From Candidatus Woesearchaeota archaeon (GTDB lineage Archaea > Nanobdellota > Nanobdellia > SCGC-AAA011-G17 > GW2011-AR18), in contig JACPCE010000003.1 in NCBI GenBank assembly GCA_016179945.1, positions 1 to 62,406 of the forward strand: DNA of 62,406 bases, read 5' to 3'. Every line of letters begins with the position of its first letter. Within the stretch, counting starts at the first letter, position 1. The notes below the pieces were generated by a model. The model saw only the letters and a program-made list of their open reading frames with translations. It was not told the DNA's origin and searched no databases. Below are positions 34,497 to 59,877 of this stretch, piece by piece. Position numbers and translations under genes: made by a program.

Positions 34497-34545
34497 TAAA
34501 TTTCACTACTTAAACTATATAAATATTTCTCAATATCAAATAGTG

Positions 34546-35556
34546 ATGATAGAAATAGATGGATCAATAGGCGGAGGACAAATTTTAAGAACGGCTTTAA
34601 GTTTATCAGCTCTAACACAAAAAACATTTAAAATAATAAACATTCGGGGAAAAAGAGAAAATGCAGGTTTGCAGCATCAGCATCTTACAGCAGTTAATTC
34701 TATATCAAAGATTTGCAATGCTCAAATAAAAGGAAATGAACTGCATTCTAAAGAATTAGAATTTACTCCAAATAATGTAACTCCAGGAAGTTATAAATTT
34801 GATATAGGGACTGCAGGTTCTACAATTCTTGTTTTACAGACACTACTTCCACCACTAATTTTTGCAAAAGAAAAATCAACATTAGAAATAACAGGTGGCA
34901 CAGCAAATCCATTAGCACCGCCTGCTTTAGATATAAAAGAAGTTTTTTTATGGCATCTGGAAAAAATAGGTATTGATGTAAAATTAGAAATAGAAAAAGA
35001 AGGATTTTATCCAAAAGGTGGAGGTGAAATAAAAGTTATAATAAATACTTGCAAAGAAATAAAAGAATTAAATTTATTAGAACATCATAAAGGCAATTAT
35101 GAAGAAACAAAAATAATTGCTGTTTGTTCTAAAGAATTAAAAGAAAGAGAGGTTGCTAAAAGAATGATTAAAGGTTTTAAATTGAATTTTCCAATACAAA
35201 ATAAAATATTATCAGAAGAGTTATATGCAGAAACTCTAAGTCCGGGATGTTATATTCATGCAAATTATAATTATGAAGATCATAAAATTGGAATGTCTGT
35301 TTTGGGAGAAAAATCAAAAAAAGCAGAAGATATAGGAAAAGAATGTGCATTAAAATTATTGGAAGAAATGAAAACAGGAGCAAGTACAGATCATTTCACA
35401 GCAGATCAATTATTAATTTATATGGCTATTAAAGGTTCTGGTAAATTAAAAGTTTCGCAAATAACAGATCATATGAAGACAAATATTCAAATTATAGAGA
35501 AATTTTTAGATGTAAAATTTAATATTAAAGATAATGTAATTGAATGTATTAAATAA
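34546..35556 (+). CDS. rtcA: RNA 3'-terminal phosphate cyclase
   Basis: MIEIDGSIGGGQILRTALSLSAL... and the overall RtcA layout with TDHFTADQLLIYMA near the C-terminus. Confidence 0.9.
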   Translation: MIEIDGSIGGGQILRTALSLSALTQKTFKIINIRGKRENAGLQHQHLTAVNSISKICNAQIKGNELHSKELEFTPNNVTPGSYKFDIGTAGSTILVLQTLLPPLIFAKEKSTLEITGGTANPLAPPALDIKEVFLWHLEKIGIDVKLEIEKEGFYPKGGGEIKVIINTCKEIKELNLLEHHKGNYEETKIIAVCSKELKEREVAKRMIKGFKLNFPIQNKILSEELYAETLSPGCYIHANYNYEDHKIGMSVLGEKSKKAEDIGKECALKLLEEMKTGASTDHFTADQLLIYMAIKGSGKLKVSQITDHMKTNIQIIEKFLDVKFNIKDNVIECIK

Positions 35557-35995
35557 ATTTATTTAAACCACCAGTTAGAAATTCATTTGCTTTTTTCAAA
35601 ACATTCTTTGTATTGCTAAATTTAATTAATTTTAAAGCATCTTCAAAATTACACCATCTAAAATCATCATGTTCAAAACTTATTTTTACTTCTTTATTTT
35701 TAGTTTCAGCTAAATAATAAGTTGCTTCTTTAAAAATAGTTTGGCCTTCTTTTTTGTAGAACCATTTAACCTTTTCTTTAAATCCTTTAATGAATTTTAT
35801 ATCTTCAATTCCTGTTTCTTCTTTTACTTCTCTTTTAATATCATCTCCAGGTGTTTCTCCTTTTTCAATTAAGCCTCTTGGAAAATCCCACATTTCTTTA
35901 TAATGTTCATGTGCATTTCTGTATAATAACAAGTAAAGAACTTCTTTTCCTTCTCTTCTAAATATTACTGCACCGTAAGATATTTCTTTTGGCAT
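35549..35995 (-). CDS. Nudix hydrolase
   Basis: Nudix box RGLIEKGETPGDDIKREVKEETGI. Confidence 0.8.
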   Translation of the reverse strand: MPKEISYGAVIFRREGKEVLYLLLYRNAHEHYKEMWDFPRGLIEKGETPGDDIKREVKEETGIEDIKFIKGFKEKVKWFYKKEGQTIFKEATYYLAETKNKEVKISFEHDDFRWCNFEDALKLIKFSNTKNVLKKANEFLTGGLNKFI

Positions 35996-36453
35996 TATCT
36001 ATTCAATGTAAACTTCTTTCCCTGATCTAAGTCTATAAATTCATCAGTGGCTTCTTTTAATTTTCCACTGCAGCTTCTTCCAAAAGCTAAAACTTCAACC
36101 TTGCATCCCAATGCCCTTTTCAAATGTTCAACTAAAGGAATATAGTCTCCATCACCAGAGGCTAAAACAACAACATCTAATTTTGGAGCCAGCTCAATAG
36201 CATCTATAGCCAATCCAACGTCCCAGTCAGCCTTTTTATTTCCACCATAAAAAACTTGCAGATCTTTTAATTTAACTTCAAAACCAATACCATCTAATGC
36301 CTTAAAAAAATTTTCTTCATCTTTTTCTCCAGCTCTTACACCATATGCAATTGCTCTGACTAATTTTCTTCCATTTACAGCTTCTCTTAAAATTTCCTTA
36401 AAATTTACTTTTGAATTATACAATGCTCTTGCACTGTAATACATATTTTGCAC
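35995..36453 (-). CDS. NYN-domain (LabA-like) protein, apparently N-terminally truncated
   Basis: VVLASGDGDYIPLVEHLKRALGCKVEVLAFG is the LabA/NYN core. The frame is open only from ...NNRVDVQNMYY, with no ATG before the conserved DxxN Asp. The track start is a GTG after that Asp. Confidence 0.6.
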   Translation of the reverse strand: MQNMYYSARALYNSKVNFKEILREAVNGRKLVRAIAYGVRAGEKDEENFFKALDGIGFEVKLKDLQVFYGGNKKADWDVGLAIDAIELAPKLDVVVLASGDGDYIPLVEHLKRALGCKVEVLAFGRSCSGKLKEATDEFIDLDQGKKFTLNR

Positions 36454-41575: not shown

Positions 41576-41599
41576 CTAGGAGTGTCCGTCGGGCTCATA

Positions 41600-41621
41600 A
41601 TAGGAAAAATCCTTATGTGAT
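41600..41621 (+). other. Putative 22-nt intron at the canonical 37/38 position of tRNA-iMet
   Basis: Sequence between CTCATA and ACCCGA. Inner hairpin AGGA-AAAA-UCCU. The anticodon region can pair with UGUG (41616-19). 3' bulge AU|A. Confidence 0.6.
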
Positions 41622-41711
41622 ACCCGAAGGTCGAAGGTTCAAATCCTTCTCCCGCTATTCTTTATATTAATTTTTAAAAATATAATTTTATAAAACAAAT
41701 TAAGAATAAGT

Positions 41712-58016: not shown

Positions 58017-59726
58017 ATGCTAAGACAAGTAATTGTAACAATAATGGGAAATGTAGATGCAGGCAAATCCCAGACCATAGATTGCATTAAAAAAACATCT
58101 ATAGTCCAATCAGAACCAGGAAAAATAACACAATCAATTAAGGCTTATTCAATTTCTATAGAAATAATTAAGTTAATTTGTAAAGATTTATTAGATTTAT
58201 CAAAAATAAAAGTTCCAGGTTTATTATTTATAGATACGCCTGGCCATAAAGCATTCTCAAATCTAAGAAAAAGAGGTGGTTCTTTAGCTGATATTGCAAT
58301 ATTGGTAGTTGATATAAATGAAGGATTAAAGCCCCAAACAATAGAAGCTATAGAAATACTAAAAGAGAATAAAACCCCTTTTGTAATAGCCTTAAATAAA
58401 ATTGATTTATTAAATGGCTGGCAGTCAAGAACAGACATTCCAATGGTAAAAACAATTCAATTTCAAACACAATCAACACAAAAATTACTTGATGAAAAAA
58501 TATACAGACTTCTGGCAGAATTCTATGAGAAAACTCTTAATACAGAAAGGTTTGATAGGATTGAAGATTTTACAAAACAAATAGTTATGGTTCCTATGTC
58601 TGCTAAAACAGGAGAAGGCATTCCAGAATTATTAATGATAATAACAGGTTTAGCTCAAAGATTTCTTGAGTCTGAATTAAGTTACGATCCAGAAGCGCCA
58701 GCAGAAGGTACAGTTTTAGAAATAACAGAAGAAAAAGGCCTTGGTCTTTGTATGGATACAATAATATACAAAGGCAAAATAAAAGCCAATGATATGATGG
58801 TTGTTGGTACACTGCATGAACCAATAGCAACCAAAATAAAAGCATTATTTTTAGTTGAGAAGAATCAGTTAAAATCTATAAAAGAAGTAGAAGCAGCAAT
58901 TGGAGTAAAAATTTCTGCAACAGGAATAGAAGCAGTTATTCCTGGAATGCCATTGAAAATAGCAAATAAAGATTTGGAAAAAACAAAAATAGAAATTAAA
59001 AAACAAATAGAGGAAACAACACTAGAATTAGATAATGAAGGTATTATTGTAAAAGCAGATTCTTTAGGTAGCTTAGAAGCATTAATAAATTTGTTAAGAG
59101 AAAAAGGAACAAAAATTAAAAGAGCGTCTGTAGGAGAAATTTCAAAAAAAGATATTACAGAAGCATTATCATCAAATAATATACTACAAAGAGTAATTTT
59201 AGGATTTAATACAAAGCAGTTGGATAACAATGAAGTTAAAATAATCACAGATAACATAATTTATTCATTAATAGATAAATTTGAAGCATGGTATAATGAA
59301 GAAAAACAAAAAATTGAAGAAAAATTAATGGGAAATTTACCTAAGCCCTGCAAGATAAAAATACTTGAAGGATATGTTTTTAGACAATCTAGTCCTGCTG
59401 TATGCGGCATAGAAGTATTAGCAGGAACATTAAAACATGGAATATCATTAATGAAAGATGATAGAGGAATAACAGAAGTTAAGGAAATGCAGCACGAAGG
59501 AAAAAAGTTGGCAGAAGCCAAGCCAGGCGAACAATTGGCTATTTCAATGCCTGGAATAACAATTGGAAGGCAGATAAAAGAAGGAGATATTTTATATTCA
59601 GATATGACTGAAGAACAGTTTAGAATTTATAAGAAAATGAAAAAATTAATTACAGTTACAGAAGTAGAGATATTAAAAGAAATAGCAGAAATAAAAAGAA
59701 AAAATAATCCTGGTTGGGGAATTTAG
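58017..59726 (+). CDS. infB: Translation initiation factor aIF5B (IF-2 homolog)
   Basis: GTPase motifs GNVDAGKS, DTPGHKAF and NKID, followed by the aIF5B domain II-IV layout. 569 aa. Confidence 0.92.
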   Translation: MLRQVIVTIMGNVDAGKSQTIDCIKKTSIVQSEPGKITQSIKAYSISIEIIKLICKDLLDLSKIKVPGLLFIDTPGHKAFSNLRKRGGSLADIAILVVDINEGLKPQTIEAIEILKENKTPFVIALNKIDLLNGWQSRTDIPMVKTIQFQTQSTQKLLDEKIYRLLAEFYEKTLNTERFDRIEDFTKQIVMVPMSAKTGEGIPELLMIITGLAQRFLESELSYDPEAPAEGTVLEITEEKGLGLCMDTIIYKGKIKANDMMVVGTLHEPIATKIKALFLVEKNQLKSIKEVEAAIGVKISATGIEAVIPGMPLKIANKDLEKTKIEIKKQIEETTLELDNEGIIVKADSLGSLEALINLLREKGTKIKRASVGEISKKDITEALSSNNILQRVILGFNTKQLDNNEVKIITDNIIYSLIDKFEAWYNEEKQKIEEKLMGNLPKPCKIKILEGYVFRQSSPAVCGIEVLAGTLKHGISLMKDDRGITEVKEMQHEGKKLAEAKPGEQLAISMPGITIGRQIKEGDILYSDMTEEQFRIYKKMKKLITVTEVEILKEIAEIKRKNNPGWGI

Positions 59727-59730
59727 AAAA

Positions 59731-59740
59731 CTTTATAACT
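59731..59740 (+). promoter_or_regulatory. TATA-box-like element upstream of the tRNA
   Basis: CTTTATAACT centred about 29 nt upstream of the tRNA 5' end. Confidence 0.45.
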
Positions 59741-59794
59741 AATTCTTAGTGTTTGATTTTTACGGGCCCGTAGCTCAGCTTGGTAGAGCATCTG

Positions 59795-59806
59795 AGTTAT
59801 GATGAA
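59795..59806 (+). other. Putative 12-nt intron at tRNA position 30/31
   Basis: Alternative fold: outer helix AGAG(21-24)/CUCU(32-35), central helix CAUC(25-28)/GAUG, bulges UG|A and AA|A. Confidence 0.4.
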
Positions 59807-59813
59807 ACTCTTA

Positions 59814-59830
59814 ACAAGTAAAATAGAGAG
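59814..59830 (+). other. Putative 17-nt intron at the canonical 37/38 position
   Basis: Central helix CUCU(32-35)/AGAG, 5' bulge UA|A, 3' bulge AG|A, followed directly by the UCAGA stem strand. Confidence 0.5.
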
Positions 59831-59869
59831 ATCAGATGGTCGCGCGTTCAAATCGCGTCGGGCCCGCTA

Positions 59870-59877
59870 TTTTTTTT
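59870..59877 (+). terminator. T8 run just downstream of the tRNA (archaeal oligo-T terminator)
   Basis: TTTTTTTT begins 4 nt after the discriminator base. Confidence 0.5.

What the first reader, a model, noticed from the sequence alone, without database searches (positions are those of the whole stretch)
59764..59866. tRNA whose anticodon arm holds 36 nt between the stem strands: probably tRNA-Lys(CUU) with 12-nt and 17-nt mini-introns
The stem strands TCTGA and TCAGA are separated by GTTATGATGAAACTCTTAACAAGTAAAATAGAGAGA.

**Single-intron reading.** One canonical intron would give the loop GUUAUGA, anticodon UAU (Ile). That requires an atypical G32 and G37 and conflicts with the G73 discriminator.

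**Two-intron reading.** The internal CTCTTAA is a perfect Lys-CUU loop with U33 and A37. Two BHB folds support it.
- Intron 2 (59814-59830): central helix CUCU(32-35)/AGAG, bulges UA|A and AG|A, followed directly by the stem strand.
- Intron 1 (59795-59806, 12 nt): outer helix AGAG(21-24)/CUCU(32-35), central helix CAUC(25-28)/GAUG, bulges UG|A and AA|A.

The two folds compete for CUCU, so splicing would have to be ordered. The mature length comes out at 74 nt. If real, a 12-nt intron would be an unusually short archaeal tRNA intron.
Basis: partly seen in the sequence, partly recalled or inferred. Interest (0 to 1): 0.65.

Follow-up and report, generated by a model that had tools for sequence, protein, structure and literature searches.

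The report
Two-intron lysine tRNA gene
This is a real lysine tRNA gene (anticodon CUU) of a tiny groundwater archaeon, broken by two very short protein-spliced introns; that is a known kind of gene structure, but standard tRNA finders miss it or mislabel it as an isoleucine tRNA.

Summary
Window 59764-59866 (+) is a tRNA (Rfam 53 bits) with 36 nt between the anticodon-stem strands TCTGA/TCAGA.

The gene is tRNA-Lys(CUU) with a 12-nt intron at 30/31 (59795-59806) and a 17-nt canonical intron at 37/38 (59814-59830). Main support:
- This is the only split of the insert that fits bulge-helix-bulge geometry. Only 6 of 200,000 shuffled inserts gave any two-intron solution.
- The single-intron Ile(UAU) reading, which ARAGORN -i returns, has no splicing motif and a G at position 37.
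- Related Woesearchaeota and other DPANN tRNA-Lys(UUU) genes, and one tRNA-Thr, carry the same kind of 30/31 intron ending GRUG-A(A/U)A just before CUUUUA (CUUGUA in the tRNA-Thr).
- The intron base that pairs with position 27 covaries with it: U-A in two genes, C-G in seven.
- Other aquifer contigs carry 1-2-nt insertions inside the would-be UAU anticodon. Three variant types stop aligning at the predicted intron-2 start.

This is a new member of a known kind (multi-intron archaeal tRNAs). A 12-nt intron is not exceptional in this clade, where 11-12-nt introns are also seen.

The parts
59764..59866 (+). Whole tRNA-Lys(CUU) gene: 103 nt as a precursor, 74 nt after removal of both introns. CCA is not encoded.
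   Evidence: Rfam RF00005 scores 53.1 bits, full length. Sequence. The mature product folds as a cloverleaf-compatible 74-mer.
59732..59738 (+). TATA-box-like TTTATAA, 25 nt upstream of tRNA position 1 (putative archaeal promoter).
   Evidence: Read directly. The same promoter-like stretch precedes the tRNA fragment in relative L165. Function is inferred.
59764..59794 (+). Exon 1: tRNA positions 1-30 (acceptor 5' strand, D arm, and anticodon-stem positions 27-30).
   Evidence: Cloverleaf alignment. The splice site follows from BHB geometry.
59785..59792 (+). 5' strands of the intron-1 motif: outer helix AGAG (59785-59788, positions 21-24) and central helix CAUC (59789-59792, positions 25-28).
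   Evidence: All 8 bp are Watson-Crick. This fold is the MFE of the 29-30-nt mini-substrates. Position 27 covaries with the intron base across relatives.
59793..59795 (+). 5' splice-site triplet UG|A of intron 1, with the cut after 59794. It merges with the 5-nt loop GUUAU into an 8-nt hairpin loop (helix-bulge-helix-loop type).
   Evidence: Geometry. UGA at this place in 8 of 9 related genes (alignment).
59795..59806 (+). Intron 1: 12 nt (AGUUAUGAUGAA), between tRNA positions 30 and 31.
   Evidence: A homologous 12-nt intron AAAUAUGGUGAA occurs in tRNA-Lys(UUU) of L158/L010/L031 and longer versions in six further genes. Insertions in other aquifer contigs fall at 59797-59800, in its loop.
59801..59807 (+). 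GAUG (3' strand of the central helix) followed by the 3' bulge AA|A. The last A becomes tRNA position 31.
   Evidence: GRUG + A(A/U)A is conserved in 8 of 9 related genes; L073 has GGUG + UAC.
59807..59813 (+). Exon 2: A31 plus C32 U33 C34 U35 U36 A37, giving anticodon CUU at 59810-59812.
   Evidence: This is the only U33/R37 loop compatible with BHB geometry. CUYUUA sits at this place in all related Lys genes.
59814..59830 (+). Intron 2: 17 nt (ACAAGUAAAAUAGAGAG) at the canonical position 37/38. Its AGAG (59825-59828) pairs with C32-U35. The 3' bulge is AG|A (59829-59831).
   Evidence: The same arrangement (CUUU with AGAG/AAGG/GAAG) is seen in the two-intron relatives. Contigs of three variant types stop aligning at 59814.
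59831..59866 (+). Exon 3: A38, anticodon-stem 3' strand UCAGA, variable loop, T arm, acceptor 3' strand and G73.
59870..59877 (+). T8 run 3 nt after the discriminator (putative archaeal terminator).
   Evidence: Read directly. Function is inferred.

Best explanation
The gene encodes tRNA-Lys(CUU) of a Woesearchaeota-type DPANN archaeon. It is transcribed as a precursor of about 103 nt carrying two short introns, which the archaeal tRNA-splicing endonuclease (EndA) and an RNA ligase would remove.

**Intron 1** (12 nt, position 30/31). It is presented in an alternative local fold:
- The D-stem 3' strand AGAG pairs with anticodon-loop bases C32-U35.
- C25-C28 (CAUC) pair with the intron's GAUG.
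- This leaves a 3-nt bulge AA|A at the 3' site. The 5' site UG|A lies in the hairpin loop, so this is a relaxed helix-bulge-helix-loop motif.

**Intron 2** (17 nt, canonical 37/38). It is presented on the normal anticodon stem:
- C32-U35 pair with the intron's AGAG.
- The bulge is AG|A.

Both motifs need C32-U35, so they cannot form at once. The precursor must refold between the two cuts. Removing intron 1 first would turn intron 2 into a textbook 37/38 substrate. That order is inferred, not shown.

Shown here: the sequence, the pairings, their improbability by chance, and their conservation and covariation in relatives. Inferred: expression, cleavage at these sites, the order of cuts and the enzyme.
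For: 1. The tRNA is real: Rfam 53.1 bits, with TATA-like and T8 signals flanking it.
2. The only split of the 36-nt insert that fits BHB geometry is 12 + CTCTTAA + 17. Only 6 of 200,000 shuffles give any two-intron solution.
3. The 12 motif base pairs are all Watson-Crick. The mini-substrate folds into the intron-1 motif as its MFE. The forced intron-1 conformer of the whole precursor (-36.6 kcal/mol) is close to the MFE (-37.3).
4. A body-pattern scan found 41 hits among GTDB representative genomes. Of these, 39 read as Lys and none as Ile. Seven carry an extra 5' insert ending G(G/A)UGA(A/U)A directly before CUUUUA.
5. With the metagenome loci there are 9 distinct genes with the 30/31 motif, including the window. 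One has a different anticodon stem (L073) and one is a tRNA-Thr(UGU) (L086).
6. The first seven insert bases differ freely in these relatives (AAUAUGG, AAAACAU, AACAGGA, AGAAAGC...), so they cannot be an anticodon loop. CUUUUA (CUUGUA in the tRNA-Thr) follows the insert in every one.
7. Compensatory change: U27 pairs with intron A in the window and L121, C27 pairs with intron G in the other seven. In L121 position 43 is G, so the intron base tracks position 27 and not position 43.
8. Other contigs from the same aquifer align from 59764. They carry 1-2-nt insertions at 59797-59800, inside the would-be UAU anticodon. Contigs of three variant types stop aligning at 59814, the predicted first base of intron 2.
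9. A37 fits the universal t6A37 requirement of ANN-reading tRNAs (established knowledge).
10. Precedent: DPANN EndAs with extra loops accompany many disrupted tRNA genes (PMC5829648). ARMAN-2 EndA cleaves a 13-nt relaxed-motif intron in vitro (PMC3239211).
Against: - No RNA evidence exists: no RNA run holds the sequence.
- The rest of the genome could not be searched. I do not know whether another Lys(CUU), a Lys(UUU), or an AUA decoder exists. AUA is very frequent (48.8 per 1000 codons against 15.5 for AAG), so the cell does need an AUA-reading tRNA.
- Covariation rests on one column and two sequences. Most helix positions are invariant tRNA positions.
- L073 was found by a scan that required pairing.
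- The outer helix AGAG/CUUU of the UUU relatives is too weak to appear in their MFE folds.
- The intron-1 fold requires melting the D stem and part of the anticodon stem.
- One 109-nt unitig (variant D) has U at both partners of an apparently unchanged U27. This does not fit.
- EndA was not found among the 10 window ORFs scanned.
Confidence: 0.85

Rival explanations
1. tRNA-Ile(UAU) with one 29-nt intron next to the anticodon (loop GUUAUGA). This is the call an automatic finder makes.
For: ARAGORN with introns allowed reports tRNA-Ile(tat) with a 29-nt intron. AUA is the commonest Ile codon in the window's genes (48.8 per 1000), so an AUA decoder is needed. Some DPANN lineages (ARMAN) do use an intron-containing tRNA-Ile(UAU) (PMC3239211).
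Against: - No BHB or relaxed motif can be drawn. GUUA against AGAG gives 2 of 4 pairs, and the script finds no single-intron solution even with one mismatch allowed. The ARMAN-2 Ile(UAU) intron, by contrast, forms a strict motif (PMC3239211).
- G32 and G37 are atypical. A37 (t6A) is expected for ANN-reading tRNAs (established knowledge).
- In relatives with the same body, the corresponding seven bases are not anticodon loops and vary freely.
- Other aquifer contigs have 1-2-nt insertions inside the 'anticodon'.
- 39 of 41 pattern hits in reference genomes are Lys and none is Ile.
- The one Woesearchaeal tRNA-Ile(GAU) in hand (L147) has a different D arm and A73.
Confidence: 0.05
2. A decaying or non-functional tRNA-Lys copy. 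The inserts are real but are not, or no longer, spliced correctly, and a functional Lys(CUU) or a Lys(UUU) that also reads AAG lies elsewhere.
For: The genome could not be searched for other Lys tRNAs. The locus is not syntenic: 7 of the 8 distinct aIF5B neighbourhoods fetched from relatives (9 loci) lack a tRNA there, and L165 keeps only the promoter and the first 12 nt.
Against: All cloverleaf stems are intact, and both splicing motifs are perfect (12 of 12 Watson-Crick pairs), which decay would not preserve. TATA-like and T8 signals are in place. The same intron arrangement is kept in several diverged lineages.
Confidence: 0.07
3. Another anticodon read from inside the insert, such as Phe(GAA) from AUGAAAC, as ARAGORN reports for the homologous L158 gene.
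For: ARAGORN -i labels the L158/L144 homologues tRNA-Phe(gaa). AUGAAAC has U33, GAA and A37.
Against: No 5-bp stem flanks AUGAAAC, and no BHB geometry yields it. GRUGAAA is explained as helix strand plus bulge, and it covaries with position 27. ARAGORN's labels for this family are scattered (Phe, Ser, Val, Pyl, Stop), which shows the tool is failing on these genes.
Confidence: 0.01

Closest known systems
Multiple-intron and non-canonical-intron tRNA genes of Thermoproteales and other Crenarchaeota (Marck & Grosjean 2003; Sugahara et al. 2007, 2008; reviewed in PMC4090602 and PMC4033280)
   Same: Up to three short introns per tRNA gene, at the canonical 37/38 position and at non-canonical positions. 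Splice sites are defined by strict or relaxed BHB motifs built partly from exon sequence. Standard finders miss these genes.
   Different: The lineage differs (DPANN/Woesearchaeota, mesophilic groundwater, 29% G+C). Here the 30/31 intron forms a recognisable family with a conserved GRUG-A(A/U)A 3' end, shared by Lys(CUU), Lys(UUU) and a Thr gene. That 30/31 is among the catalogued crenarchaeal positions is my recollection; I could not check it in the papers held.
Disrupted tRNA genes of ARMAN-2 (Ca. Micrarchaeum) and other DPANN, with broad-specificity EndA (PMC3239211, PMC3488258, PMC5829648)
   Same: [quoted passage not shown] A 13-nt intron was cleaved in vitro. The 2018 paper links DPANN alpha4-type EndAs carrying the L3 loop to increased tRNA disruption, and it includes a Woesearchaeota genome.
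   Different: Those papers describe T-loop (53/54, 59/60) and canonical introns. I found no description there of this 30/31 plus 37/38 tRNA-Lys arrangement or of a motif that uses the D-stem strand. The EndA of this genome was not identified.
Intron-containing tRNA-Ile(UAU) of ARMAN lineages (PMC3239211)
   Same: It is a DPANN tRNA with an insert in the anticodon loop, and it is what an automatic finder calls this gene.
   Different: The ARMAN-2 gene has a 25-nt intron in a strict hBHBh' motif. The window gene has no motif at all under the Ile reading, and it has a Lys-type body.

Membership tests
tRNA (Rfam RF00005) | Cloverleaf sequence and structure scoring above the family's gathering score. 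| tested here: met
   53.1 bits against a gathering score of 29, model positions 1-71 of 71, with a 32-nt insert in the anticodon loop.
Archaeal BHB-type (EndA-spliced) tRNA intron, canonical 37/38 (intron 2) | A 4-bp central helix between positions 32-35 and the intron; a 3-nt 3' bulge next to the anticodon stem; a 5' site two bases after the helix. | tested here: met
   CUCU/AGAG with 4 of 4 Watson-Crick pairs and bulges UA|A and AG|A. There is no second outer helix inside the intron, so this is the relaxed helix-bulge-helix-loop form. While intron 1 is present, the stem-side helix is interrupted by 12 nt.
Archaeal BHB-type tRNA intron, non-canonical position (intron 1, 30/31) | Exon-intron pairing that places both splice sites two bases into 3-nt bulges (or a loop) flanking a 4-bp helix. 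| tested here: met
   CAUC/GAUG plus AGAG/CUCU, 8 of 8 Watson-Crick pairs, 3' bulge AA|A, and the 5' site UG|A in the hairpin loop. The motif is conserved in 8 other genes, with one compensatory pair.
Archaeal BHB-type tRNA intron | Actual cleavage by EndA and ligation, yielding a mature tRNA. | not testable with these tools
   No RNA run holds the sequence. EndA was not found among 10 window ORFs.
tRNA-Lys | Anticodon YUU in a 7-nt loop with U33 and A37, and a body like other Lys tRNAs of the clade. | tested here: met
   The spliced loop is CUCUUAA. 39 of 41 reference-genome hits to the body pattern are Lys. The T arm and acceptor stem, which were not part of the pattern, match Lys(UUU) of L161/L087 and Lys(CUU) of L084 closely. 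This body comparison is partly circular, because the pattern selected the D arm and anticodon stem.
tRNA-Ile(UAU) | Loop with U33, UAU and A37 (t6A), an A73 discriminator, and a splicing motif for any intron. | tested here: not met
   The loop would be GUUAUGA with G37. The discriminator is G73. No BHB or relaxed motif exists for a single intron.

The most novel reading that the evidence does not exclude
The 30/31 mini-intron would be an old, conserved and perhaps mobile intron family of Woesearchaeota-type DPANN tRNAs (Lys-CUU, Lys-UUU, Thr-UGU), not a one-off. Its splice motif is built from the D-stem strand and anticodon-loop bases 32-35. Those same bases are used by the canonical intron's motif, so maturation would proceed through an obligatory refolding step with a fixed order of cuts. 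That could act as a folding checkpoint. If automatic finders misread this family widely (as Ile-UAU, Phe, Ser, Val or 'stop'), published inferences about decoding in DPANN genomes, such as AUA reading, may be distorted.
Probability: 0.3. Interest if true: 0.5.

Novelty: new member of a known kind. Interest (0 to 1): 0.35.

Why it matters
For annotation: default ARAGORN misses this gene, and with introns allowed it returns tRNA-Ile(UAU). The homologues are labelled Phe, Ser, Val, Pyl or 'stop'. In DPANN genomes such errors remove a Lys isoacceptor and invent an AUA decoder, which affects conclusions about codon reading and apparently missing tRNAs.

For biology: the gene adds a clear case, with comparative support, of very short (12-nt and 17-nt) introns with relaxed motifs in Woesearchaeota. 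It also shows two splice motifs that share the same four exon bases, so they must form one after the other. That makes a simple in vitro test of ordered tRNA splicing possible. The kind of feature itself (multiple and non-canonical archaeal tRNA introns) is well established.

Tried and rejected
- **Whole-genome tRNA census.** I could not check for other Lys, Ile or Ile2 tRNAs, TiaS or EndA.
- **RNA evidence.** No RNA run holds the stretch. Only groundwater DNA metagenomes do.
- **Synteny.** I fetched the aIF5B neighbourhood from relatives with 70-80% identical aIF5B. Of 8 distinct neighbourhoods (9 loci), 7 have no tRNA after aIF5B (one gave gene calls only, no DNA). L165 keeps the promoter and 12 nt of the tRNA and then diverges. 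No orthologue was obtained this way.
- **EndA in the window.** A Pfam scan of 10 candidate ORFs found none. It found RtcA and a NYN-domain protein.
- **Body similarity ranking** against ARAGORN-predicted tRNAs in the fetched loci. The top hits are all Lys-type, but the loci were selected by a pattern on the same body, so I give this little weight.
- **Exact sequences of the aquifer variants** from read laying. Differences near the ends of laid pieces are not listed, so I cannot say whether those genes are CUU or UUU. I rely only on the positions of the insertions and on the break at 59814.
- **Single-intron placements.** Every one gives AGA, UGA, UAA or UAU loops, mostly without U33 or with class-II anticodons. 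All were rejected by hand and by script.
- **Literature on catalogued intron positions and minimum lengths.** Sugahara 2007 is not held, and the slash notation could not be searched.

Full report
**1. What is there**

Window 59764-59866 (+) reads GGGCCCG-TA-GCTC-AGCTTGGTA-GAGC-A-TCTGA-[36 nt]-TCAGA-TGGTC-GCGCG-TTCAAAT-CGCGT-CGGGCCC-G.
- Rfam's tRNA model matches it full length at 53.1 bits (gathering score 29), with a 32-nt insert in the anticodon loop.
- Default ARAGORN does not report it.
- It lies 37 nt after the stop codon of an aIF5B gene (58017-59726). The closest homologues of that gene, at 80% identity, are named Candidatus Woesearchaeota.
- The window has 29% G+C. It is found only in groundwater DNA metagenomes.
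- A TTTATAA box lies 25 nt upstream of position 1, and a T8 run lies 3 nt after the discriminator.

**2. Which anticodon**

One excision can only join a prefix and a suffix of the insert. By hand, that gives loops AGAGAGA, GGAGAGA, GUAGAGA, GUUGAGA, GUUAAGA or GUUAUGA. Only the last is formally acceptable: Ile-UAU, with G32 and G37. ARAGORN with introns allowed makes exactly that call, tRNA-Ile(tat) with a 29-nt intron.

That reading has no splicing motif. The four bases after the stem (GUUA) would have to pair with AGAG next to the 3' site, and they give only 2 of 4 pairs.

A script tested every split of the insert into [5' intron][7-nt loop with U33 and R37][37/38 intron] under BHB geometry. 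It returned a single solution, 12 nt + CTCTTAA + 17 nt, even with one mismatch allowed per helix. Among 200,000 shuffles of the insert, 6 gave any two-intron solution and 1,062 gave a single canonical solution.

**3. Anatomy of the two motifs**

Intron 2 (59814-59830) is a canonical 37/38 intron.
- C32-U35 (59808-59811) pair with AGAG (59825-59828).
- The 3' bulge AG|A abuts the anticodon stem.
- The 5' site UA|A lies two bases after the helix.
- The intron has no internal helix, so this is the relaxed helix-bulge-helix-loop form.

Intron 1 (59795-59806) sits at 30/31 and needs an alternative fold.
- AGAG (positions 21-24, the D-stem 3' strand) pairs with C32-U35.
- CAUC (positions 25-28) pairs with GAUG (59801-59804).
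- The 3' bulge is AA|A. The 5' site UG|A lies in an 8-nt hairpin loop.

All 12 motif pairs are Watson-Crick. A 29-30-nt mini-substrate adopts the intron-1 fold as its MFE. For the full precursor, the forced intron-1 conformer reaches -36.6 kcal/mol against an unconstrained MFE of -37.3. The cloverleaf with the intron-2 helix reaches -32.1. The alternative fold is therefore accessible.

Both motifs use C32-U35, so they are mutually exclusive and the RNA must refold between cuts. After intron 1 is removed, intron 2 sits on an uninterrupted anticodon stem.

**4. Relatives**

I scanned for GGTAGAGCAYCTGA-N(15-45)-TCAGRTGGTC.
- Among GTDB representative genomes there were 41 hits, mostly Woesearchaeota, Nanoarchaeota or 'Nanoarchaeia' MAGs.
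- Of these, 39 read as tRNA-Lys: 31 UUU with a canonical-start intron, 7 UUU with an extra 5' insert, and 1 CUU.
- One reads as Asn, one is not a tRNA, and none reads as Ile.

The extra 5' insert always ends G(G/A)UGA(A/U)A directly before CUUUUA.
- L158/L010/L083/L142 and L031/L144: AAUAUGGUGAAA + CUUUUA + a 15-nt intron. The first intron is 12 nt, as in the window, and 9 of 12 bases are identical.
- L123 and L119/L130: two introns.
- L150, L032 and L121: only the 30/31 intron, 27-38 nt long.
- L073 (2011-2165), found by a pairing-based scan: a Lys(UUU) with a different anticodon stem (CCGGC/GCCGG) and the same geometry. It lies next to a Lys(CUU) with only a canonical intron.
- L086: a tRNA-Thr(UGU) that carries GGUGAAA at the same place.

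In these genes the first seven insert bases are not conserved and are not anticodon loops, whereas CUUUUA (CUUGUA in the tRNA-Thr) follows the insert in every one.

On a trimmed 29-column alignment of the 9 distinct genes, 98.6% of cells pair. One pair shows a compensatory change: U27-A in the window and L121, C27-G in the other seven. In L121, position 43 is G, so the intron base follows position 27 itself.

Caveats:
- There is only one covarying column.
- Most helix columns are invariant tRNA positions.
- L073 was selected for pairing.
- The outer helix of the UUU genes (one G-U pair, two A-U pairs) is too weak to appear in their MFE folds.

**5. Population data**

Logan contigs of four runs from the same aquifer project were laid on the locus. 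Contigs identical to the window are present, but they are the same population and not independent support.

Other contigs, up to 22.7 kb long, align from 59764.
- They carry insertions of CA, C, G or AG behind 59797-59800 and substitutions at 59796-59800. That is inside the loop of intron 1, which in the rival reading is the anticodon itself.
- Contigs of three of the variant types stop aligning at 59814, the predicted first base of intron 2, and continue with unrelated sequence.

Differences near the ends of laid pieces are not listed by the tool. I therefore cannot say whether these genes are CUU or UUU.

One 109-nt unitig has U at 59802 and at 59836, the two partners of position 27, while position 27 itself appears unchanged. 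This remains unexplained.

**6. Limits**

- No RNA run holds the sequence.
- AUA is very common in the window's genes (48.8 per 1000 codons against 15.5 for AAG), so an AUA decoder must exist somewhere. That keeps a small prior on the Ile reading.
- Synteny gave nothing. Of 8 distinct aIF5B neighbourhoods (9 loci), 7 have no tRNA. L165 keeps the promoter and GGACCCGTAGCT and then unrelated DNA to the contig end.
- EndA was not among the 10 ORFs scanned. RtcA (34543-35556) is in the window.

**7. Comparison with what is known**

Multiple and non-canonical BHB introns in archaeal tRNA genes are well established (reviews PMC4090602, PMC4033280).
- In DPANN, ARMAN-2 has 56% disrupted tRNA genes. 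Its epsilon2 EndA cleaves a 13-nt relaxed-motif intron in vitro.
- ARMAN lineages have an intron-containing Ile(UAU) with a strict motif (PMC3239211).
- Kaneta et al. 2018 link DPANN alpha4-type EndAs carrying an L3 loop to increased tRNA disruption. They note that incomplete tRNA sets in DPANN point to undetected disrupted genes (PMC5829648).

This gene is a new member of that kind. A 12-nt intron is not exceptional here, since related Lys genes have 11-nt and 12-nt canonical introns.

Modestly new points, as far as the papers I could search show:
- A recognisable 30/31 intron family with a GRUG-A(A/U)A end, shared by Lys-CUU, Lys-UUU and Thr genes.
- A splice motif that borrows the D-stem strand.
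- Two motifs that share bases 32-35.

Earlier notes of this scan report very dense tRNA introns elsewhere in this genome, and a 30/31 intron in a Lys(CUU) of another archaeon. I did not test those notes, apart from seeing a sub-threshold tRNA match (20.1 bits) at 41577-41649.

**8. Verdict**

Ile(UAU) stands at about 0.05, a non-functional copy at about 0.07 and other anticodons at about 0.01. Interest is 0.35: ordinary biology of a known kind, with practical weight for annotation and a neat test case for ordered splicing.

Noticed in passing
L165:4710-5039: In a relative with 78% identical aIF5B, the same promoter-like stretch follows the gene, then only the first 12 nt of the tRNA (GGACCCGTAGCT), then unrelated AT-rich DNA to the contig end. 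This could be a truncated tRNA, a very large insertion at 12/13, or an integration scar.
   Followed up: no
L158, L144, L122, L149, L120, L084, L046, L136, L156 (the tRNA-Lys genes found by the pattern): ARAGORN with introns allowed labels these Lys genes Phe(gaa), Ser(aga), Val(aac), Pyl(cta) or Stop(tta). Anticodon calls for this gene family are unreliable.
   Followed up: partly
L135, L081/L157, L089/L145, L128, L150, L121, L086 and others, 3' of TCAGGTGGTCGCGAGTTCGAA: Many Woesearchaeota tRNA-Lys(UUU) genes, and the tRNA-Thr of L086, also have an insert in the T loop, after GTTCGAA or GTTCAAA. Some genes therefore carry three introns.
   Followed up: no
L073:2011-2334: On a 1.19-Mb metagenome contig, a Lys(UUU) with a 30/31 intron plus a second long insert lies 70 nt upstream of a Lys(CUU) with only a canonical intron. 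The second insert of the UUU gene needs a 4-nt bulge or another relaxed motif. I did not resolve it.
   Followed up: partly
Rfam at its gathering score and ARAGORN both miss it.
   Followed up: partly
window 34543-35556 (+) and 35995-36453 (-): RNA 3'-terminal phosphate cyclase RtcA (Pfam RTC, E = 5.6e-78) and a NYN-domain ribonuclease-like protein (E = 6e-32) lie close together. Both are RNA-processing functions in a genome rich in spliced RNAs.
   Followed up: no
window 59802 and 59836, in a 109-nt contig of run X2: A diverged full-length homologue has U at both partners of position 27 (the intron base and position 43), while position 27 is not reported as changed. This is either a mismatch to the model or an artefact of a short unitig.
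   Followed up: no
window, 13 longer genes: AUA is the most used Ile codon (48.8 per 1000 codons; AUU 44.9, AUC 4.0). No AUA-decoding tRNA is in this window.
   Followed up: no
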